DNA of 5,716 bases from Escherichia coli. Lineage in GTDB: Bacteria; Pseudomonadota; Gammaproteobacteria; Enterobacterales; Enterobacteriaceae. This document shows, in pieces, positions 1 through 5,716 of the stretch. The DNA lies in NCBI RefSeq assembly GCF_013315695.1, contig NZ_CP054357.1; one strand, written 5' to 3'. The notes beneath the pieces were generated by a model that worked only from the letters and a program-made list of their open reading frames with translations, had not been told where the DNA came from and did no database searches. Position numbers and translations under genes: made by a program. Each line of letters starts with the position of its first letter. Positions within the stretch are counted from its first letter, which is position 1.

Positions 1-423
1 ACTATCGTCATGGCAATATCTCTTTTCGCGTTATCCTCAACATCCAGCACAGAACAACATTTTCACATTATAAAAATATTCGGTGGAGGCTATTTAATAT
101 ACATAGGATTAATGGGTTTAATTAATAAAAAAAACAAACAAAGAAAAGAGCAAAAACCTTTTTTGATACCATTATTAAACCCCAAGGCGTATCTTTTCTT
201 TGCTGCGTTAATACCAACCTTTATAGATAATAATACAAATATCACATTAAACTTTTTTATATTGGGTGTTTTATTTATATTTATATCATTCCTAACAGAT
301 CTTATTTACATAGCTATTAGCTTAACGATAAGGGATAAATTGACGCCATCATTCTCAAGATACATAAGCATATGTAGTTCCATTTTTATATTAGGTACAG
401 GTATTTATTTTATTTTTACGTGA
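1..423 (+). CDS. LysE/RhtB-family exporter, C-terminal ~140 codons; the frame is open from base 1, so the 5' end lies outside the linear window (it continues from 5567..5716 if the molecule is circular)
   Basis: The frame is open from position 1 (ACT ATC GTC ATG..), so the ATG at 10 is internal. The translation is highly hydrophobic with several predicted TM segments and the motif NPKAYLFFAALIPTFI, matching the conserved NPK..FL.ALFPQF region of RhtB/LysE-type translocators as I recall it. Stop TGA at 421-423. AT-rich codon usage. Confidence 0.75.
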   Translation, partial: TIVMAISLFALSSTSSTEQHFHIIKIFGGGYLIYIGLMGLINKKNKQRKEQKPFLIPLLNPKAYLFFAALIPTFIDNNTNITLNFFILGVLFIFISFLTDLIYIAISLTIRDKLTPSFSRYISICSSIFILGTGIYFIFT

Positions 424-437
424 AACGCCGTTTTTAT

Positions 438-471
438 ACTCATGCAGCCTTAGTCATAAGACGGCATGAGT
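438..471. terminator. Intergenic hairpin between convergent genes (possible weak bidirectional terminator)
   Basis: 8-bp inverted repeat ACTCATGC (438-445) / GCATGAGT (464-471) with an 18-nt loop, in the 57-bp gap between the exporter stop (423) and the stop of the minus-strand 238-aa ORF (481). A short T-run (431-435) lies upstream but there is no strong U-tract after the stem on either strand. Confidence 0.3.
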
Positions 472-480
472 TACTTAACA

Positions 481-1197
481 CTATTTCAGTATGGCATATT
501 TTTTATTTGGTGATTGTTCATTAAAATAATATCCGCTTTCGTCATCAACTAACACGCATGCTTTACGATAATCTCCACACTTCGAGAACTCGGCCAATGG
601 AGCTTTTTCTTTCCATTCTTTTAACATGGATTCATGTTTTTTCTGTTCTTCCATTAGCGAACTAATATTCATTTTGAGATATTCAGCATAGAAAACAGGA
701 GCGATCATTAGCAATAAAAATAATACAATCAACACAATTACCTTTTCGACAATCCTTGTTACTGTATACTTCTCCATTGTTTTTCTAATTATACCTGTCG
801 CAACTTCGGCCTCTCTGGTCGTCTGCTTTAATGATTCCTTTATCTCTTTACTTGTTTGCTCCTCGAAATCAACCCACTCTTTCTTTACATCATTGAGAGT
901 GAAAGATAATTTTTCGCGGAGTAATGACGTTAGTGTATCTGAGACTGATTTCTGTAATTTACAAGATGCCTCATCCATTCCTTTATTAATATAAAATTTA
1001 ACATTAGACACACTATCCCTAAAGGAATAAGAAATTCCAGAAACAACTTTACCTTCACGTTCAAGAGTACTTGTAAAGGTATTTAAGTCATTCACTCTTT
1101 CATTAAGCAGAGTAATTAGCCTGTTCATTTCTTTTATTTGTTTATCATTATACGCAACAAGAGCAGCAATTTTTCTTGAATGTTCATCCAATTGCAT
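481..1197 (-). CDS. Hypothetical membrane protein, 238 aa: N-terminal coiled-coil-like region, one TM helix, small Cys-containing C-terminal domain
   Basis: ORF with a GGAGG Shine-Dalgarno 9 nt upstream of the ATG at 1197, only 20 nt after the mobA stop. The N-terminal ~150 aa are rich in K/E/L/I with heptad-like spacing; one strongly hydrophobic segment (VIVLIVLFLLLMIAPVFYAEYL); the C-terminal ~60 aa contain CGDYRKAC. Clearly more AT-rich than adjacent mobA. I recognise no family. Confidence 0.7.
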   Translation of the reverse strand: MQLDEHSRKIAALVAYNDKQIKEMNRLITLLNERVNDLNTFTSTLEREGKVVSGISYSFRDSVSNVKFYINKGMDEASCKLQKSVSDTLTSLLREKLSFTLNDVKKEWVDFEEQTSKEIKESLKQTTREAEVATGIIRKTMEKYTVTRIVEKVIVLIVLFLLLMIAPVFYAEYLKMNISSLMEEQKKHESMLKEWKEKAPLAEFSKCGDYRKACVLVDDESGYYFNEQSPNKKYAILK

Positions 1198-1217
1198 AAA
1201 ATAAAAACCTCCAGTGC

Positions 1218-2303
1218 TTAACGGCTCATACCATAATCACGTGAACGTGATGGTGCTGGTGAGGAATACGCACGCTGGCGCACTCTTTCTCTTTCCCTCT
1301 CCAGGTCTCTTTGCTTTTCGGCTTCAATTAGTCGTTCCTGTTGCAACTTCCGCTCCTCTTCCACCTGGAATTGCTTCATCATTGAGTCCAGCGCACCGTT
1401 AATCAATGAATTAAGCTGCATTACCTCATTGAGTTCATCAAACGAGCTTTCAACAAACGCCTTCAATTCTGCCCCAAGCTCATCCAGGCTTGGTGGTATG
1501 TTATCCCGTTCAGCTAACGCTTCCTTCAAGGTCGTTTTAAGGTCAATGATGCTGTCCCGTTCCTGCTCTGCTTCTAGCTTCTCCCGTTCCGCGTTTCTCC
1601 GTGCCAGAATTGCACAAACCTGATCAGCATTCATAACAGCAACACGAACGGGACCAAGATGAACTTCCGGTGTGCGCTTGATACCCTGTTCTTTCAGTGA
1701 ACGATGATCAACGCGCGACTGATGGCCGTGCCGCGCAAGGTGTTCATTCTGCACATCAGCCCAGTGAGAACGTAGCGCAACCAAGGCTGATTTTCGCTCT
1801 TGTGGTGTCTCACCAAAGCGTGCCTTTTTTGCACCTCCCCGCTCCGGTGATTTGCTGTTGGCACGTTTAAAAAACTGCTGCGGATCGCGTTCAATACCAT
1901 CATTAATCCGCTCGCAAAACATGATATGTGCGTGTGGTTGTTCCTTTCCGTCGATTGCACCTGGCGGATTGTGGATCGCGTACTGATAGGCATGGCGATC
2001 ACCAAGCTCCTTTTGCACGAAATCTTCAACAAGTTCTATCCGTTGTTCGCGTGTCAGTTCTCGCGGTAATGCGATCTCAATTTCACGGTATGCCGTCCCG
2101 TTTTTTCGTTCAAATTCATCTGCTGCTTTCCATAGCTCTGCGGGATTTTTCTTCGCCCATGATGGCATGTTACCGGATGACGAAAATTCCAGATCCTCCC
2201 GCGATTTGTAGTTCTTATATTCGCCGGATCTAGAAATATAATCAGCATGTTTTAAGGCTACGCCTTTTGCTCCAGTTTTAACTGTACAATGGTAGCTTGC
2301 CAT
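1218..2303 (-). CDS. mobA: MobA relaxase, MOBQ family (RSF1010 MobA-like relaxase domain only, 361 aa)
   Basis: The N-terminus MASYHCTVKTGAKG...HADYISRSGEY parallels RSF1010 MobA (MAIYHLTAKTG...KADYIQREGKY, catalytic Tyr in the ADYI motif). It also carries EIEIALPREL and the histidine motif HAHIMFCERINDGIERDPQQFFKR (RSF1010: HCHLMISERINDGIERPAAQWFKR), then VDHRSLKEQGIKRTPEVHLGP. The C-terminus is ER-rich low complexity. Comparison is from memory of the RSF1010 sequence. Confidence 0.9.
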   Translation of the reverse strand: MASYHCTVKTGAKGVALKHADYISRSGEYKNYKSREDLEFSSSGNMPSWAKKNPAELWKAADEFERKNGTAYREIEIALPRELTREQRIELVEDFVQKELGDRHAYQYAIHNPPGAIDGKEQPHAHIMFCERINDGIERDPQQFFKRANSKSPERGGAKKARFGETPQERKSALVALRSHWADVQNEHLARHGHQSRVDHRSLKEQGIKRTPEVHLGPVRVAVMNADQVCAILARRNAEREKLEAEQERDSIIDLKTTLKEALAERDNIPPSLDELGAELKAFVESSFDELNEVMQLNSLINGALDSMMKQFQVEEERKLQQERLIEAEKQRDLERERERVRQRAYSSPAPSRSRDYGMSR

Positions 2304-2333
2304 CTGCCGTTAAGCCCTCCGCAGGAGCGCACT

Positions 2334-2387
2334 GTTTCTCGACGAAGGAGAGAAACGTCTAAGTGCGCATCCCTGAATTAATCAGGG
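2334..2387 (+). other. oriT: oriT (origin of transfer) with RSF1010-type nic region; predicted nick between 2367 and 2368 on the + strand
   Basis: Inverted repeat GTTTCTC (2334-2340) / GAGAAAC (2350-2356) followed by TAAGTGCGC (2361-2369). RSF1010 oriT, as I recall it, has GTTTCTCGAAGAGAAAC then GGTAAGTGCG^CCCT. A second small palindrome CCCTGA-ATTAA-TCAGGG follows at 2371-2387. It lies between divergent mobA and mobC, as in RSF1010. Confidence 0.7.
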
Positions 2388-2421
2388 ATGATTTTAAGGT
2401 CTCACACGCAGGCAGACAAGG

Positions 2422-2430
2422 TGATATTAT
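2422..2430 (+). promoter_or_regulatory. Putative extended -10 element (TGaTATTAT) for the mobC transcript
   Basis: TG at 2422-2423 followed by TATTAT at 2425-2430, about 45 nt upstream of the mobC start; no good -35 hexamer is seen. Sequence-pattern inference only. Confidence 0.3.
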
Positions 2431-2474
2431 GCACAATAACAACTCACATTAACGGCAAAAGTGCAGAGGTAAGA

Positions 2475-2921
2475 ATGACAAATCGTGAAGAGTGGTTAAG
2501 TGCAAAAATTGCCTATATCAACGGACTGAAATCACCGTCAGAGCAGCAAAGATTACTTGTGTTACTGGCAGAGAAAAAAAACCGAACAACGACGGATGAA
2601 AAAACGTTGTCCGCACTGATACGGGCAGAAAAAACCGCAGAGAAAGCAGCCGCAGCAAAAGCCAGGGTAACGGCAATAATAGCGGCAGAACGGAAGGCAG
2701 CCGCAAGGGCGGAACGAAAGGCGCGGGATCATGAACTCTACAAGGCCGCAGGCCTCATGATTGTGGCAGGACTGGTGGACAGCAAAACCGGAAAACCAAA
2801 GTTTAGTGCTGCCGAACTGGTAGGCGCACTCGCAGGAATCGCAGAGCTACCGCGCAACCATCCAAAATGGCAGGAATGGGAAAAACGCGGGAAAGAGCTA
2901 CTCACCAAAGACAGTGCGTAA
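2475..2921 (+). CDS. mobC: MobC / TraD-like relaxosome accessory protein (148 aa from the ATG at 2475)
   Basis: Divergent from mobA across oriT. SD GAGGT sits 4 nt upstream of the ATG at 2475. An Ala/Lys/Arg/Glu-rich helical region (AEKAAAAKARVTAIIAAERKAAARAERKARDHE) is followed by a hydrophobic stretch (LYKAAGLMIVAGLVD), which resembles the RSF1010 MobC pattern (..ERKNETRRKVLVGAMILAKV..) from memory. The upstream in-frame ATG at 2388 lies inside the oriT palindrome and lacks a convincing SD. Confidence 0.7.
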   Translation: MTNREEWLSAKIAYINGLKSPSEQQRLLVLLAEKKNRTTTDEKTLSALIRAEKTAEKAAAAKARVTAIIAAERKAAARAERKARDHELYKAAGLMIVAGLVDSKTGKPKFSAAELVGALAGIAELPRNHPKWQEWEKRGKELLTKDSA

Positions 2922-2949
2922 GAGCCTCCGTTCACGTTCCGGTTCCCTG

Positions 2950-3003
2950 GTGCTTCCTCGCTCATTCGCTCGCTACGCTCGGTCATTGAGACTGCGGCGA
3001 GCA
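2950..3003. other. ssi / primosome-assembly-site-like element (ColE1 PAS-like)
   Basis: TGCTTCCTCGCTCATTCGCTCGCTACGCTCGGTCATTGAGACTGCGGCGAGC closely resembles the ColE1/pBR322 segment GCTTCCTCGCTCACTGACTCGCTGCGCTCGGTCGTTCGGCTGCGGCGAGC (from memory), which lies in the ColE1 primosome assembly region. Its function here is inferred. Confidence 0.45.
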
Positions 3004-3078
3004 CAACCACCACTCACACACAGACGCTAAAACCATTGCCAAACGAAACACGGGAAATCACCCCAAACCTACCCGCTC

Positions 3079-3097
3079 AAAAAAACGCCTACAGGCG
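3079..3097 (-). terminator. Short hairpin plus T7 run just beyond the ori (possible rep transcript terminator)
   Basis: The minus strand reads CGCCTGTAGGCG followed by TTTTTTT (plus-strand A-run 3079-3085). The stem is only 4 bp, so this is weak. Confidence 0.3.
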
Positions 3098-3130
3098 CTG
3101 TTATCTGATAAGGCTTGTTATCTGGTCTCA
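3090..3130 (-). other. ori: ColE2-type replication origin (Rep binding and priming site) immediately 3' of rep
   Basis: The minus strand reads AAAATGAGACCAGATAACAAGCCTTATCAGATAACAGCGCCTGT, with CAGATAACA repeated. This matches my recollection of the ColE2-P9 minimal origin (TGAGACCAGATAAGCCTTATCAGATAACAGCGCC). The rep stop codon TGA (3128-3130) is the first triplet of this element. Confidence 0.7.
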
Positions 3131-4057
3131 TTTTGCGAGATCTGGATCACATTTTAGTTTTCGATAGTATGTGGCACGACTGATCCCTAACGTCACCCAC
3201 GGCTTCAGAGTTCGTGCCGATGTGGCAACGGCTACACGCTTTGATTTCTGACCTTTAATAGCCTGATTTTCTGATGAATTTGCATTACCGCCCTTACGAC
3301 CTCGAGCAGCCTGTACCGCGGAAAAGCCTTCAGGAGAGAATTTGCGGTAGGTGTATTTCGCAATACTCTTGCCAATAGCCCGACATTCAGCCGGAGAAAG
3401 CGGAACGGGAAGCGATGCGTTGTACATTTCGACACGCTGAATCACTGCATCAAGCCACGGTGAGAATGCTGGCCAGCCCTGACGAATCGCCCTGTAAGAC
3501 CATTTACGGCCCTTTTCGAACAGATACCAGTTTCGCCCCATCCCGTAATCTTTATCGACGCGACGGCGCGCTGAGGCGCTCAAATCAAGATAATCCGCCA
3601 GTTCGTCGAGGGTATAGAGTTCCCAACGCCATTCCACCACCTGCCATTCCTGGTGGAACGGATTTTTGCAGATCAGGCCGCTGTAGTTCACATCCGCGCC
3701 CAGTTTTTCACACAGCGCACGCTCAATCACGGCAGCGTATTTGAGCGCCGAAGCCGATGCATCCGGCGCGGTTCTCACCGGAAGAGTGAGCGCGTAGAGC
3801 AGATGCGCGTGCCCGTTACGTGGATTTTTTACGGTGATGTTCGGGGCCGGACAGTTCCGGTCGCTCCAGTCGATCGCTGCCCCCGTCCGGTCAACGTCAA
3901 AGGCCAGCCAGTGCTGCGCATGTGGCTGGTTCTGCTGGATGAAACGGGCAAGGATGGCGATATCTTTCGGTAGAATGCGAACGCCGTACGTGAAATCGTT
4001 CGTACAGTACGGTTTGTGCGGTAATTTTTCCCTGAAGAGTTGAAGTACGGCGCTCAT
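3128..4057 (-). CDS. rep: ColE2/ColE3-family replication initiator Rep (plasmid-specific primase), 309 aa
   Basis: Translation MSAVLQLFREKLPHKPYCTNDFTYGVRILPKDIAILARFIQQNQPHAQHWLAFDVDRTGAAIDWSDRNCPAPNITVKNPRNGHAHLLYAL... is near-identical over long stretches to ColE2-P9 Rep as I remember it. GGAGG sits 12 nt upstream of the ATG, and the cognate ori-like sequence lies directly downstream. Confidence 0.9.
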   Translation of the reverse strand: MSAVLQLFREKLPHKPYCTNDFTYGVRILPKDIAILARFIQQNQPHAQHWLAFDVDRTGAAIDWSDRNCPAPNITVKNPRNGHAHLLYALTLPVRTAPDASASALKYAAVIERALCEKLGADVNYSGLICKNPFHQEWQVVEWRWELYTLDELADYLDLSASARRRVDKDYGMGRNWYLFEKGRKWSYRAIRQGWPAFSPWLDAVIQRVEMYNASLPVPLSPAECRAIGKSIAKYTYRKFSPEGFSAVQAARGRKGGNANSSENQAIKGQKSKRVAVATSARTLKPWVTLGISRATYYRKLKCDPDLAK

Positions 4058-4155
4058 GTGTTAGGATTTCCTCCGTGTGTTACGACCCACACGCCCCTTG
4101 AATTTTCGTGACAGTCTTGGCGGATCGGCACGAATTTCAGGGGCGTTTGTTTTTC
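4040..4155 (+). ncRNA. Candidate antisense RNA I (copy-number control RNA complementary to the rep mRNA leader); boundaries approximate
   Basis: Plus-strand promoter-like elements TTGAAG (4040-4045), 16-nt spacer, TAGGAT (4062-4067), overlapping the rep start codon. A long imperfect hairpin plus T-run ends at about 4155. ColE2 replicons are known to use an antisense RNA of about 115 nt against the rep leader. With this promoter the transcript would be about 80 nt, so the true 5' end is uncertain. Confidence 0.45.
4094..4155 (+). terminator. Rho-independent terminator-like hairpin plus T-run (3' end of candidate RNA I; same structure in complement forms the rep leader stem-loop)
   Basis: Left arm CCCCTTGAATTTTCGTG (4094-4110), right arm CACGAATTTCAGGGG (4129-4143), imperfect with one or two bulges and an 18-nt loop, followed by CGTTTGTTTTTC (4144-4155). 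Confidence 0.5.
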
Positions 4156-4163
4156 AGTTGGTT

Positions 4164-4192
4164 ACACTACACCCAACGGCAAATCCTGTCGA
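4164..4192 (-). promoter_or_regulatory. Putative rep promoter (minus strand: -35 TCGACA, 17-nt spacer, -10 TAGTGT)
   Basis: Reverse complement of 4187-4192 is TCGACA and of 4164-4169 is TAGTGT, separated by 17 nt. The predicted start near 4157 would give a ~100-nt rep leader fully covered by the candidate RNA I. Pattern-based only. Confidence 0.3.
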
Positions 4193-4213
4193 TCCTTCCC
4201 GAAAACCAGACCC

Positions 4214-4241
4214 ATTTACCATAACTCCTCTTGTACGTACC
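4214..4241 (-). other. XerC/XerD core recombination site (cer/psi-like multimer resolution site)
   Basis: The minus strand reads GGTACGTACAA-GAGGAG-TTATGGTAAAT. The XerD arm is identical to ColE1 cer (TTATGGTAAAT) and the XerC arm differs from cer (GGTGCGTACAA) at one position; the central region is 6 bp, as in dif and psi rather than cer's 8 bp. Accessory sequences would extend to about 4430 on the XerC side. Confidence 0.65.
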
Positions 4242-4342
4242 CTCTAAAACGCTCTCAATCGCTTTCTGACGCAAAAAACTCAAAAAGACAAGATAAACCT
4301 AGGGAAAACACAAAAAACGCGTCAGAATCGTTTTTAGGGGTC

Positions 4343-4356
4343 TGCATAACTATGCA
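4343..4356. promoter_or_regulatory. Perfect palindrome TGCATA-AC-TATGCA: candidate ARG box (ArgR accessory site) for the cer-like site
   Basis: 14-bp perfect palindrome about 120 bp from the XerCD core on the XerC side. It resembles the ARG-box half-sites (TGAAT....ATTCA) with an A-to-C substitution; cer-type sites require ArgR and PepA binding about 100 bp from the core. Confidence 0.35.
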
Positions 4357-4481
4357 CAAAAGCGATTAATGATCGGTTTCACCCCTTCAGAAGCGCGAAC
4401 TGGTCAAAACAGCAAACTTTCTCATCCAGAAAGCCAGCTGAACTAACCCGCATGAAAACAAATTTCCAAACATATCCAGTC

Positions 4482-4508
4482 TGGACAACGAAATATCGAC
4501 AATATAAA
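4482..4508 (+). promoter_or_regulatory. Putative sigma70 promoter for the cargo operon (-35 TGGACA, 15-nt spacer, -10 TATAAA)
   Basis: TGGACA at 4482-4487 and TATAAA at 4503-4508, about 100 nt upstream of the ATG at 4610. The spacer is short; pattern-based only. Confidence 0.3.
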
Positions 4509-4609
4509 ACATCATAATCGTGTTTATGGCGTGTAAAAAAGCTTACAAGAGAATTAGCATTGAAGAGTCATAACAACAAATTCCAAAAATCAAACCAGAG
4601 GATAGGAAA

Positions 4610-5560
4610 ATGAATAATTTTATAAATGAATGTATTTCCGCTCCGAGAATAAACGGCATGGCAGAATTTTTCTCATCAACTGCATCAGGGGAAAAACACA
4701 AACCTTTTAGACTAGTAGAAATAGATGATCGGCTTTTTCATTCTTATGATTACATTAAGTTTGCCAAACACCTCACAAAAAACAGCGGCCCTTTCGTTAA
4801 TCATTATTTTTGCAGTATACCATACAGCAAGGAAGAAGAGTGCAGATTAGGAACAACAGTAATAAAATACGCAATCACGCTAAACAAAAAATTAAACACA
4901 TGGTGTCTTGGTATGGCTGAGGGCGCAATGGCAAGAACCATTTCAGAATTATCAAAAGGAAACATACAAACATTAACAACCAGTCCAACAAAAGAAAATG
5001 AACATGCATTTTTTAAGTATAGCTCAAGTGAAAACGCTTATTTTATTTGCACTCCATTTTTCCTGTTAGAGGAAAGACTAAAAAATTCAAATCTTAAACA
5101 ATTTAATCAAGGATTCGATATTATAATAGAAGACACCACATTTCAAATGTACTCACCTAACAGATCTGGGCAAATAAACCACGTAAAAAGGCTATTAAAT
5201 AATGATGGTATTTTCATATTTACAGAAAAACATAGTTCAGAACATGATGAATATCAAAAAAGAGAAATCCAAAAAGATTATTCATTCAAACAAAGGTATT
5301 TCTCGAAAGATGAGATTAACACCAAAAAGGAAATCGTACTAAACACAATGAATTTGAATGAAGTTAGTGTTGACGATATGCTTTCCGCAATTAAACAACA
5401 TTTTAAATACGCATCAATATATTGGAATAGCGGAAATTTTTACTCAATCGCCGCCAGCAATTCACTAAAACACATATCAACATTTATAAATTTATTACCG
5501 AAAGCTGCAATTCCTATGGAATATGTATATGAAAAGCTCCCACGAAATATATCATGGTAA
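4610..5560 (+). CDS. Hypothetical protein, 316 aa; possible class I SAM-dependent methyltransferase-like Rossmann core (tentative)
   Basis: SD AGAGGA 7 nt upstream of the ATG; AT-rich. The central region has MTase-like motif spacing: LGMAEGAMARTI (glycine-rich, motif I-like), then about 65 aa later FDIIIEDTTF (motif II-like), then VKRLLNNDGIFIFTE (motif III-like). No canonical GxGxG and no (D/N/S)PP(Y/F) DNA-MTase motif. Stop TAA at 5558-5560. Confidence 0.75.
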   Translation: MNNFINECISAPRINGMAEFFSSTASGEKHKPFRLVEIDDRLFHSYDYIKFAKHLTKNSGPFVNHYFCSIPYSKEEECRLGTTVIKYAITLNKKLNTWCLGMAEGAMARTISELSKGNIQTLTTSPTKENEHAFFKYSSSENAYFICTPFFLLEERLKNSNLKQFNQGFDIIIEDTTFQMYSPNRSGQINHVKRLLNNDGIFIFTEKHSSEHDEYQKREIQKDYSFKQRYFSKDEINTKKEIVLNTMNLNEVSVDDMLSAIKQHFKYASIYWNSGNFYSIAASNSLKHISTFINLLPKAAIPMEYVYEKLPRNISW

Positions 5561-5566
5561 GTAAAC

Positions 5567-5716
5567 ATGGAATATTCAACATTATTATCATTTGCTATCG
5601 TAACCTTATCGCAAACTATATCAATAGGGCCTGGCGTTGCATTGGTTATAAACAATGCCTTTTCACATGGATTAAAGTCATCAATAAAAACAAGTATATA
5701 CATAAGAATTGGCGAG
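5567..5716 (+). CDS. LysE/RhtB-family exporter, N-terminal 50 codons; 3' end runs off the window (continues at 1..423 if circular)
   Basis: ATG at 5567, 6 nt after the stop of the 316-aa gene. MEYSTLLSFAIVTLSQTISIGPGVALVINNAFSHGLKSSIKTSIYIRIGE has the hydrophobic N-terminus and S-x-GPG motif typical of LysE/RhtB translocators (RhtB: ..[20 protein letters not shown]..). There is no stop before the window end, and the window ends exactly on a codon boundary. Confidence 0.75.
   Translation, partial: MEYSTLLSFAIVTLSQTISIGPGVALVINNAFSHGLKSSIKTSIYIRIGE

What the first reader, a model, noticed from the sequence alone, without database searches (positions are those of the whole stretch)
481..1197. 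Compositionally foreign coiled-coil membrane protein translationally coupled to mobA
The 238-aa ORF starts 20 nt after the mobA stop with a strong SD, implying co-transcription with the relaxase, yet it is visibly much more AT-rich than mobA. Its architecture (long coiled-coil-like N-terminus, one TM helix, short C-terminal domain with a CxxxxxC pair) matches no family I recognise. Candidate roles are entry exclusion, a membrane-anchored phage-defence or toxin effector, or a MobB-like membrane accessory factor; none is supported beyond position and architecture.
Basis: partly seen in the sequence, partly recalled or inferred. Interest (0 to 1): 0.75.

Follow-up and report, generated by a model that had tools for sequence, protein, structure and literature searches.

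The report
Divergent MobX plasmid-mobilization membrane protein
The "orphan" membrane protein after the relaxase gene is a diverged copy of MobX, the little-studied second mobilization protein of the classic plasmid pSC101, so it belongs to the plasmid's transfer machinery and is not a foreign toxin or defence gene.

Summary
The window is a complete 5716-bp ColE2-type mobilizable plasmid of E. coli/Salmonella. The 238-codon ORF (481..1197, minus strand) is real. It starts 20 nt after the mobA stop behind a GGAGG, is 33% GC against 48% for mobA, and is under purifying selection (dN/dS 0.23).

It is not an orphan. Profile-profile comparison matches it over its full length to pSC101-type MobX (probability 99.9%, E 4e-35). 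The whole module (TraD-like MobC, R1162/pSC101-like oriT, 361-aa MobA, MobX) has pSC101's organization. Every relative found, from 47% identity down to weak profile-level matches, lies directly after a MOBQ relaxase gene, including in Acinetobacter and Acidiphilium.

The family has a cytoplasmic coiled coil, one TM helix (N-in) and a small periplasmic domain with two invariant cysteines. The only fold matches are MobB/MbeB mobilization proteins, and they are weak.

Best reading: a relaxase accessory protein that ties the MobA relaxosome to the inner membrane and the helper's transfer apparatus. This mechanism is inferred, not shown.

The low GC is specific to this sub-clade and fits a mosaic mobA-mobX operon rather than inserted cargo.

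Verdict: new, unannotated member of a known but poorly understood family; modest interest.

The parts
481..1197 (-). mobX-like gene (238 aa), a divergent member of the pSC101 MobX family. RefSeq annotates it as 'hypothetical protein' (WP_001175444.1).
   Evidence: ORF. Annotation. Homology to pSC101 MobX. dN/dS 0.23.
745..1197 (-). Codons 1-151: predicted cytoplasmic helical/coiled-coil region. It holds the conserved N-terminal K-I-A-A-L motif (aa 9-13) and the juxtamembrane I-R-K-x-M motif (aa 137-141).
   Evidence: AF2 helices 5-87 and 91-198. Invariant I10, L13, A130, M141. In 71 of 72 family members there are more K+R residues before the TM than after it.
937..1026 (-). Codons 58-87: a roughly 30-aa insertion in the coiled coil. 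It is present only in the ORF238/P0012/P0017 clade and absent from pSC101-type MobX.
   Evidence: Alignments. Gap analysis. AF2 confidence is low here.
682..744 (-). Codons 152-172: single transmembrane helix (KVIVLIVLFLLLMIAPVFYAE).
   Evidence: Hydropathy 3.0 over 19 aa. AF2 pLDDT about 91 in this stretch.
484..681 (-). Codons 173-238: predicted periplasmic part, made of a helix followed by a small beta domain. It carries the family signature W195-x2-K198-A-P200-x-A202 ... C207-x6-C214-V. Codon C207 is at 577..579 and codon C214 at 556..558.
   Evidence: Invariant columns in 72 sequences. Two Cys after the TM in 71 of 72 members. AF2 strands at 204-235, pLDDT 71-82.
1208..1212 (-). Shine-Dalgarno GGAGG, 10 nt upstream of the mobX-like ATG, inside the 20-nt gap after mobA.
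   Evidence: Sequence. The equivalent short gap with AGGA occurs in pSC101-type plasmids.
1218..2303 (-). mobA, a MOBQ relaxase of 361 aa. Relaxase domain: codons 1-241 (1581..2303). pSC101-like C-terminal domain: codons 242-361 (1221..1580).
   Evidence: NCBIfam MobQ/TraA_Ti hits. 51% identity to pSC101 MobA over the full length. The N-domain is 90% identical to pBS512_5 MobA but the C-domain is unrelated to it.
2334..2387 (+). oriT-like region. Inverted repeat GTTTCTC (2334..2340) / GAGAAAC (2350..2356), then TAAGTGCGC (2360..2368), then a second inverted repeat (2371..2387).
   Evidence: Sequence. The same layout is seen in pSC101. This stretch is 93-95% conserved in hundreds of plasmids. 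The resemblance to the R1162 oriT nick region is from background knowledge.
2475..2921 (+). TraD-like small protein (148 aa), transcribed divergently from mobA. It corresponds to MobC of MOBQ4 plasmids.
   Evidence: RefSeq annotation. PF06412 TraD in the homologous loci. The MobC role in MOBQ4 plasmids is described in PMC6856555.

Best explanation
The ORF encodes a divergent MobX, the second mobilization protein of pSC101-type MOBQ modules.

Shown here:
- It is a full-length homologue of pSC101 MobX.
- It follows a pSC101-like mobA with a short gap that contains a Shine-Dalgarno sequence.
- It is under purifying selection.
- The family has one TM helix, an N-terminal coiled coil on the side rich in K+R, and two invariant cysteines on the other side.

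Inferred mechanism:
- MobX is made from the mobA transcript and inserts in the inner membrane N-in/C-out.
- Its cytoplasmic coiled coil binds the short helical C-terminal domain of MobA, with which it is co-inherited.
- This holds the relaxase-oriT complex at the membrane, next to the coupling protein and type IV secretion system of a helper conjugative plasmid, and so raises mobilization frequency.
- The small periplasmic domain, probably disulfide-bonded, may anchor or orient the protein relative to the helper's envelope complex.

Functionally this is the role proposed for R1162 MobB, and by architecture probably for ColE1 MbeB. The low GC of the gene reflects a mosaic operon: a relaxase domain shared with enterobacterial MOBQ4 plasmids, joined to a mobX from a lower-GC lineage. 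It does not reflect an unrelated cargo insertion.
For: Homology:
- hhalign of the ORF238 clade against pSC101-type MobX gives probability 99.9%, E 4.1e-35, over 187 columns.
- BLASTP against pSC101 MobX gives 29% identity over 140 aa, E 6e-13.
- The intermediate P0022 matches pSC101 MobX at 34% identity, E 9e-33.

Module:
- pSC101 has traD / mobA / 12-nt gap / mobX.
- The window's MobA is 51% identical to pSC101 MobA over its full length.
- The oriT layout is the same.

Synteny. Every homologue lies directly after a MOBQ relaxase gene, with a gap of -13 to +29 nt:
- P0017, P0022, P0023, P0026 and P0027.
- Yersinia, Morganella and E. coli pSC101-like plasmids.
- Acinetobacter lwoffii after mobQ, and Acidiphilium after a Ti-type traA. 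hhalign for these two gives 95% and 97.8%.
- A 4.55-kb plasmid type carries only rep, mobC, mobA and this gene.

Selection: dN/dS is 0.23.

Topology: 71 of 72 members have more K+R before the TM than after it, and two Cys after the TM.

Fold: the only AFDB50 Foldseek hits are 'mobilization protein mobB' (E 0.07, probability 1.0) and 'MbeB family mobilization protein' (E 0.19). hhalign of MobX against ColE1-type MbeB gives 86%, E 4.7e-6.

Link to the MobA C-domain:
- Relaxases with a 90%-identical catalytic domain but a long, unrelated C-terminus (pBS512_5) lack mobX.
- Behind such a long mobA, RCS90_pII keeps only a truncated mobX with an in-frame stop.
Against: - No functional data could be examined. 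Meyer 2000 (J Bacteriol 182:4875), which named mobX, is not in the held library. Its findings and those on R1162 MobB are used here only from background knowledge.
- The molecular mechanism of MobX has not, to my knowledge, been established.
- This clade is only 21-26% identical to pSC101-type MobX in the full-length alignment (29% over the best 140 aa). It carries a 30-aa insertion and C-x6-C instead of C-x4-C.
- Between the two alleles it accumulates non-synonymous changes about five times faster than mobA.
- MOBQ4 plasmids with nearly the same relaxase domain are mobilized with only MobA and MobC (PMC6856555). MobX is therefore not needed for nicking chemistry as such.
- The links to MbeB/MobB are weak (Foldseek E 0.07-0.19; hhalign 86% across a helix-plus-TM stretch).
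- The AF2 model is of moderate confidence (pLDDT 66.7, pTM 0.26).
- MobX-MobA binding is inferred from linkage only, and gene adjacency alone could explain that linkage.
Confidence: 0.72

Rival explanations
1. Entry or surface exclusion protein. It would sit in the recipient's inner membrane, and its periplasmic domain would block incoming DNA transfer of related plasmids, as proposed for ColE1 MbeD/Exc proteins.
For: It is a bitopic membrane protein with a conserved periplasmic Cys domain. ColE1-type mob regions do carry exclusion genes (MbeD, Exc1, Exc2 annotations). It evolves faster than mobA, as specificity determinants often do.
Against: There is no signal peptide or lipobox; the N-terminus is a hydrophilic helix. 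There is no similarity to MbeD (hhalign 2.8%). The family member in pSC101 is named and annotated as a mobilization gene. A long conserved cytoplasmic coiled coil and strict linkage to the relaxase C-domain are not expected of an exclusion factor. A mobilizable plasmid has no transfer apparatus of its own to exclude.
Confidence: 0.08
2. Membrane-acting toxin, abortive-infection protein or phage-defence effector carried as cargo next to mobA.
For: It has low GC relative to mobA. It is a single-pass membrane protein. There is a weak PADLOC AbiZ match (E 6.5e-4, 17 bits).
Against: The PADLOC match covers only the coiled coil (aa 21-130) and lies in the same range as hits to SMC-like and specificity-subunit models. 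No partner antitoxin or sensor gene is present. The gene occurs in minimal plasmids that have only rep and mob genes. Synteny with relaxases spans three orders of Proteobacteria. Full-length homology is to MobX.
Confidence: 0.04
3. It substitutes for the missing long C-terminal domain of MOBQ4 relaxases in a DNA-processing role in the cytoplasm, such as relaxosome stabilisation at oriT or priming. Membrane anchoring would be incidental.
For: Short MobA plus MobX, and long MobA without MobX, are alternative arrangements on 90%-identical relaxase domains. The long C-terminus is reported to have low homology to SogL primases (PMC6856555). UniRef calls family members '22 kDa relaxation protein'.
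Against: There is no detectable similarity between the ORF and the long MobA C-terminus. No DNA-binding or primase motif was found. The most conserved parts of the family are the TM-proximal and periplasmic motifs, which argues that membrane placement is central.
Confidence: 0.12

Closest known systems
MobX of plasmid pSC101 (WP_010891053.1; UniRef name '22 kDa relaxation protein'; gene named by Meyer 2000, J Bacteriol 182:4875)
   Same: Full-length homology (hhalign 99.9%, E 4e-35). Same position directly after a pSC101-type mobA with a short gap containing a Shine-Dalgarno sequence. Same architecture and signature motifs: KIAAL......REM..., W-x2-KAP-x-A...C...C-V. Same companion genes: TraD-like MobC and an R1162-like oriT.
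   Different: Only 21-26% identity in the full-length alignment, and 29% over the best 140 aa. 238 aa rather than 194 aa, because of a 30-aa insertion in the coiled coil. C-x6-C rather than C-x4-C. Much lower GC than its mobA, whereas pSC101-type mobX matches its mobA in GC3. ColE2-type replicon instead of Rep_3. Not recognised by RefSeq naming ('hypothetical protein').
MbeB of ColE1 (MbeB family mobilization protein, WP_000067500.1)
   Same: Same overall build: helical N-terminal region of about 85-150 aa, one TM helix, a periplasmic helix, then a small beta-rich C-terminal domain. Encoded in the mob operon of a small mobilizable plasmid. The only AFDB50 fold hits of the model are MobB/MbeB-annotated proteins. 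hhalign gives 86%, E 4.7e-6 over 86 columns.
   Different: It accompanies a MOBP/HEN relaxase (MbeA), not a MOBQ relaxase. It is encoded inside the mbeA region rather than after it. It has no cysteine pair and a different periplasmic motif (KTWGV...FLVLP). Homology is not established. No member of the 72-sequence MobX alignment matched an MbeB Pfam model.
MobB of R1162/RSF1010
   Same: A small accessory protein of a MOBQ mobilization system that acts with MobA. Parker & Meyer 2007 report that the MobA transport signals require MobB (title seen). From background knowledge it is membrane-associated. This is the role proposed here for MobX.
   Different: mobB is encoded within mobA in another reading frame, not downstream of it. 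It is a smaller protein with no known periplasmic Cys domain. Sequence similarity could not be tested because the record is not in the collections.

Membership tests
MobX (pSC101-type mobilization protein) | Detectable full-length sequence homology to pSC101 MobX | tested here: met
   hhalign 99.9%, E 4.1e-35, 187 columns. BLASTP E 6e-13. Transitive link through P0022, E 9e-33.
MobX (pSC101-type mobilization protein) | Gene lies immediately downstream of, and co-oriented with, a MOBQ mobA | tested here: met
   20-nt gap in the window. 12-nt gap in pSC101 and relatives. Gaps of -13 to +21 nt in the other clade members.
MobX (pSC101-type mobilization protein) | Architecture: N-terminal coiled coil, one TM helix, C-terminal domain with W-x2-KAP-x-A and two invariant Cys | tested here: met
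   Invariant columns W195, K198, A199, P200, A202, C207, C214 in 72 sequences. TM and charge bias. AF2 model.
MobX (pSC101-type mobilization protein) | Accompanied by a pSC101-like MobA (short C-terminal domain), a divergent TraD-like gene and an R1162/pSC101-like oriT | tested here: met
   MobA is 51% identical to pSC101 MobA over its full length. TraD-like gene. oriT inverted repeat plus TAAGTGCGC.
MobX (pSC101-type mobilization protein) | Needed in the donor for efficient conjugal mobilization | not testable with these tools
   This is a genetic property. The original paper (PMC111367) is not held.
MbeB family (ColE1) | Sequence homology to MbeB / Pfam MbeB model | tested here: inconclusive
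   hhalign of the MobX alignment against a 6-sequence MbeB alignment gives 86%, E 4.7e-6, limited to the pre-TM helix and TM. Against a single ColE1 MbeB it gives 15%. No Pfam MbeB hit. Foldseek hits to MobB/MbeB have E 0.07-0.19.
MbeB family (ColE1) | Part of a MOBP/HEN (MbeA) mobilization operon | tested here: not met
   The relaxase here is MOBQ.
R1162/RSF1010 MobB | Encoded inside mobA in an overlapping reading frame | tested here: not met
   The ORF lies wholly downstream of the mobA stop. The mobB overlap with mobA in RSF1010 is stated in PMC5572225.
R1162/RSF1010 MobB | Sequence similarity to MobB | not tested
   The RSF1010 record is not in the collections.
Entry-exclusion proteins of small plasmids (MbeD, Exc1/Exc2, TrbK-like lipoproteins) | Signal peptide or lipobox, or similarity to MbeD | tested here: not met
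   The N-terminus is a hydrophilic helix and the only hydrophobic segment is aa 152-172. hhalign against ColE1 MbeD gives 2.8%.
Known anti-phage defence proteins (PADLOC models) | Significant match to a defence-system model | tested here: not met
   The best hit is AbiZ, E 6.5e-4, 17 bits, over the coiled coil only.

The most novel reading that the evidence does not exclude
MobX (MOBQ plasmids) and MbeB/MobB-like proteins (ColE1-type and Vibrio/Aeromonas plasmids) would form one ancient, unrecognised superfamily of bitopic 'relaxosome-to-envelope' adaptors. Their fast-evolving periplasmic domain would contact the helper plasmid's type IV secretion complex and so set which helpers can mobilize a given small plasmid. 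In this view the short-MobA + MobX and long-MobA arrangements on near-identical relaxase domains are two interchangeable solutions for helper recruitment. They might also relate to the reported cis- versus trans-acting behaviour of these relaxases.
Probability: 0.2. Interest if true: 0.55.

Novelty: new member of a known kind. Interest (0 to 1): 0.27.

Why it matters
It turns a recurrent 'hypothetical protein' on small E. coli, Salmonella and Shigella plasmids into a mobilization gene. This matters when predicting which small plasmids can move and with which helpers.

It also exposes gaps in annotation. The MobX family (444 clusters at 90% identity) has no Pfam or NCBIfam model, and many members carry the wrong name 'tRNA modification GTPase'.

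The natural contrast between short MobA + MobX and long MobA without MobX, on 90%-identical relaxase domains, gives a ready-made genetic system for asking what MobX does. That question has, to my knowledge, been open since the gene was named in 2000.

The possible kinship with ColE1 MbeB hints at a general class of membrane adaptors in mobilizable plasmids.

Tried and rejected
Searches with no significant result:
- Pfam, NCBIfam, PHROGs and PADLOC scans of the single protein gave only coiled-coil noise. Pfam on the 6- and 72-sequence alignments did the same.
- The PDB sequence-profile search returned only keratin, haemagglutinin and vinculin helices. Foldseek against PDB found nothing.
- Single-sequence AlphaFold2 was uninformative (pLDDT 49).
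- The word-indexed protein search with the single sequence found only near-identical proteins.

The route that worked: the exhaustive representative search gave the first distant relatives. pSC101 MobX itself was not among them at E <= 0.001. It was reached through tblastn with the MobA C-terminal domain.

Ideas tested and dropped:
- The ORF as a split-off piece of the long MOBQ4 MobA C-terminus: no similarity.
- The ORF as part of the AT-rich cargo (methyltransferase-like ORF316 + LysE exporter): homologues occur without that cargo.

Not obtainable:
- Meyer 2000 and Meyer 2009.
- Searches for the RefSeq accession and for 'kDa relaxation protein' found nothing.
- The RSF1010 record for a MobB comparison.

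Full report
**What the window is.** The 5716 bases are a complete circular plasmid. It is 100% identical over its full length to NZ_CP082933.1 (Salmonella London), CP056318.1 and other 5716-bp E. coli plasmids, typed as mobilizable, MOBQ. Its genes in window coordinates are:
- a ColE2-type rep (3128..4057, minus strand);
- a TraD-like small gene (2475..2921, plus strand);
- mobA (1218..2303, minus strand);
- the ORF in question (481..1197, minus strand);
- an AT-rich pair on the plus strand: a 316-aa methyltransferase-like ORF (4610..5560) followed by a LysE-family exporter that runs across the origin (5567..423).

- The ORF is 238 codons and starts with ATG 20 nt after the mobA stop. GGAGG lies 10 nt upstream of the start. 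No promoter-like or terminator-like site falls in the gap.
- It is 33.3% GC (GC3 29%) against 48.4% (GC3 43%) for mobA.
- There is one strongly hydrophobic segment at aa 152-172.
- With a 72-sequence alignment, AlphaFold2 gives two long helices (5-87 and 91-198, the second running through the membrane segment) and a small four-strand domain at 204-235. Mean pLDDT is 66.7, rising to 71-91 from residue 150 onward.
- The gene is not a chance ORF. Two alleles (100% and about 90% amino-acid identity) occur in 29-32 PLSDB plasmids and in 24 of 5426 complete E. coli genomes, always on plasmids. dN/dS between the alleles is 0.23, against 0.05 for mobA.

**It looked like an orphan at first.** Pfam, NCBIfam, PHROGs, PADLOC and PDB profile searches gave only coiled-coil noise. 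The exhaustive search of 1.84 billion representatives found a handful of relatives at 25-47% identity. Looking up where they are encoded was the turning point. Each one sits directly after a 327-364-aa MobA_MobL gene, with a gap of -13 to +21 nt. The 47% relative lives on a 4.55-kb plasmid that has nothing but rep, the TraD-like gene, mobA and this gene. The ORF therefore travels with the relaxase, not with the AT-rich cargo.

**Identification as MobX.**
- The window's MobA is 90% identical to the 516-aa MobA of pBS512_5 over residues 1-241, but its last 120 residues are unrelated to that protein.
- A tblastn search with those 120 residues found 35-40% matches in pSC101-like plasmids of Yersinia, Morganella, Proteus, Klebsiella and E. 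coli.
- In these plasmids the gene 12 nt after mobA (194-196 aa) is annotated 'mobilization protein MobX' or, oddly, 'tRNA modification GTPase'. pSC101 itself has traD / mobA / mobX in this arrangement.
- The ORF matches pSC101 MobX by BLASTP (29% over 140 aa, E 6e-13).
- The intermediate P0022 matches pSC101 MobX at 34% over its full length (E 9e-33).
- Profile against profile gives 99.9% probability, E 4.1e-35, over 187 columns.
- The window's MobA is 51% identical to pSC101 MobA end to end.
- The intergenic region has the same inverted repeat followed by TAAGTGCGC as pSC101. From background knowledge this resembles the R1162 oriT.
- The whole mobilization module is therefore pSC101-like, and the ORF is its mobX.

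**The family.** A search with the combined alignment found 444 clusters. Source names include 'mobilization protein MobX', '22 kDa relaxation protein', 'tRNA modification GTPase' and 'ElaB/YqjD/DUF883 family'. No Pfam or NCBIfam model covers the family.

Invariant positions in 72 sequences are I10, L13, A130, M141, W195, K198, A199, P200, A202, C207 and C214. These fall in three places:
- an N-terminal K-I-A-A-L motif;
- a juxtamembrane R-E-M motif;
- a post-membrane W-x2-K-A-P-x-A...C...C-V motif.

In 71 of 72 members the 15 residues before the membrane helix hold more K+R than the 15 after it (3.9 against 1.5 on average), and 71 of 72 have exactly two cysteines after the helix. This supports a cytoplasmic N-terminus and a periplasmic, probably disulfide-bonded, C-terminal domain.

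Within this family the ORF238 clade differs by a 30-aa insertion (aa 58-87) and by C-x6-C in place of C-x4-C.

Weaker but consistent relatives follow a MobQ relaxase in Acinetobacter lwoffii and a Ti-type TraA in Acidiphilium multivorum. hhalign for these gives 95% and 97.8%. The linkage to MOBQ relaxases therefore spans Enterobacterales, Moraxellales and an alphaproteobacterium.

**The composition question.**
- In pSC101-type plasmids mobX has the same GC3 as mobA (0.51-0.61 against 0.50-0.60). Low GC is therefore not a family trait.
- In the ORF238 clade the gene is always AT-richer than its mobA.
- In two metagenomic relatives the whole module is AT-rich, with mobA at 38-40% GC.
- Between the window and the 4.55-kb plasmid, identity falls along the operon: relaxase domain 92%, MobA C-domain 72%, MobX 47%. 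Synonymous divergence is saturated in mobX but not in mobA.
- The simplest reading is a mosaic operon. A relaxase domain is shared by recombination with enterobacterial MOBQ4 plasmids, and it is joined to a C-domain and mobX from a lower-GC lineage.
- 'Compositionally distinct' is therefore right. 'Foreign cargo' is not.

**How it probably works.** MOBQ4 plasmids such as ColE9-J and pIGWZ12 are described as having only mobA and mobC. Their MobA has a long C-terminus with low homology to SogL primases, and their relaxases act preferentially in cis, whereas pSC101 MobA works in trans (PMC6856555).

In the data here, 90%-identical relaxase domains come in two forms:
- with a long C-terminus and no mobX (pBS512_5);
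- with a short pSC101-like C-terminus plus mobX (the window).

One plasmid with the long form (RCS90_pII) retains only a 5'-truncated mobX with an in-frame stop. This complementarity suggests that the short C-domain and MobX act together. The gene's conserved cytoplasmic coiled coil, membrane helix and periplasmic domain suggest that it places the relaxase-DNA complex at the inner membrane, next to the helper plasmid's coupling protein and secretion channel.

Two further results point the same way:
- The only AFDB50 Foldseek matches of the model are a 'mobilization protein mobB' from Vibrio harveyi (E 0.07, probability 1.0) and an 'MbeB family mobilization protein' from Aeromonas (E 0.19).
- ColE1 MbeB has the same helix / TM / periplasmic-helix / small-beta-domain layout and aligns with the MobX profile at 86% probability (E 4.7e-6) over the pre-membrane helix and TM.

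For R1162, the MobA transport signals are reported to need the small protein MobB (title of Parker & Meyer 2007, seen). Its membrane association is from my background knowledge. All steps beyond homology, synteny, selection and predicted topology are inference.

**Rivals.**
- Entry exclusion is unlikely. There is no signal peptide or lipobox and no similarity to MbeD. There is a long conserved cytoplasmic domain and strict relaxase linkage.
- A toxin or defence effector is unlikely. The only PADLOC match is weak and confined to the coiled coil, there is no partner gene, and the gene is present in minimal plasmids.
- A purely cytoplasmic relaxosome role is possible. It fits poorly with the fact that the membrane-proximal and periplasmic motifs are the most conserved parts.

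**Verdict.** The feature is real. The gene is a divergent, unannotated member of the known MobX family rather than something new in kind. The remaining interest lies in the unknown mechanism of MobX, the possible MobX-MbeB relationship, the natural short-MobA+MobX versus long-MobA contrast, and the annotation gaps.

Noticed in passing
L015 3382..3972; L016 3391..3975; proteins P0041, P0053, P0059, P0076, P0079 and others: Many MobX homologues in RefSeq/UniRef are named 'tRNA modification GTPase'. They consist only of a coiled coil, one TM helix and a small Cys domain, and no NCBIfam family reaches its cut-off. This looks like a propagated misannotation. JGI calls one 'ElaB/YqjD/DUF883 family'.
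   Followed up: partly
window 4610..5560 (+) and 5567..5716 + 1..423 (+): The rest of the AT-rich block (about 28-33% GC) is a two-gene unit. It has a 316-aa ORF with weak SAM-methyltransferase similarity (CmoA-like NCBIfam E 6e-6; PHROG 'tRNA methyltransferase' 7e-11; Pfam Methyltransf_31 E 0.0016). Six nt later comes a 190-aa LysE-family exporter that crosses the plasmid origin. Its function as plasmid cargo is unknown.
   Followed up: partly
window 1218..2303 (-): mobA is a mosaic. Codons 1-241 are 90% identical to the long (516-aa) MobA of pBS512_5. The last 120 codons are unrelated to that protein and resemble pSC101 MobA (about 40%). The junction lies near window 1580.
   Followed up: yes
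L002 (NZ_LT985301.1, RCS90_pII) 6013..6297: A 5'-truncated mobX remnant (TM helix plus C-terminal domain, 53% identical to P0017) with an in-frame stop between the two conserved cysteines. It lies just downstream of a long MOBQ4-type mobA 3' end. This looks like a decaying gene left after a swap of the C-terminus.
   Followed up: partly
NZ_CP053240.1 (5689 bp) and NZ_CP053241.1 (5237 bp), E. coli SCU-106: One strain carries both alleles of the gene (100% and about 90%) on two different small plasmids with different rep genes. Two related mobA-mobX modules therefore coexist in one cell.
   Followed up: no
window 437..472: A strong hairpin (ACTCATGC...GCATGAGT, -16 to -19 kcal/mol) lies between the convergent stops of the LysE gene (423) and the mobX-like gene (481). 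It has no U-run on either strand. It could be a bidirectional terminator or an RNA-stabilising stem.
   Followed up: partly
window 1221..1240 (-) and the MobA C-termini in L004, L008, L012-L018: The MobA proteins linked to a MobX gene in 10 of the 11 loci compared end in a similar tail (YGMSR, HGWSR, RGWSL, KGWSFSR); L011 (YGPERG) does not. The long MobA of pBS512_5 has SWSRG about 20 residues from its end. This could be a recognition or transport signal.
   Followed up: no
L025 2363..2842 (Acinetobacter lwoffii); L026 2914..3486 (Acidiphilium multivorum): 'Hypothetical proteins' with the MobX C-terminal signature follow a MobQ relaxase (4-nt overlap) and a 928-aa Ti-type TraA relaxase (29-nt gap). 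This extends the relaxase-MobX linkage well beyond Enterobacterales.
   Followed up: partly
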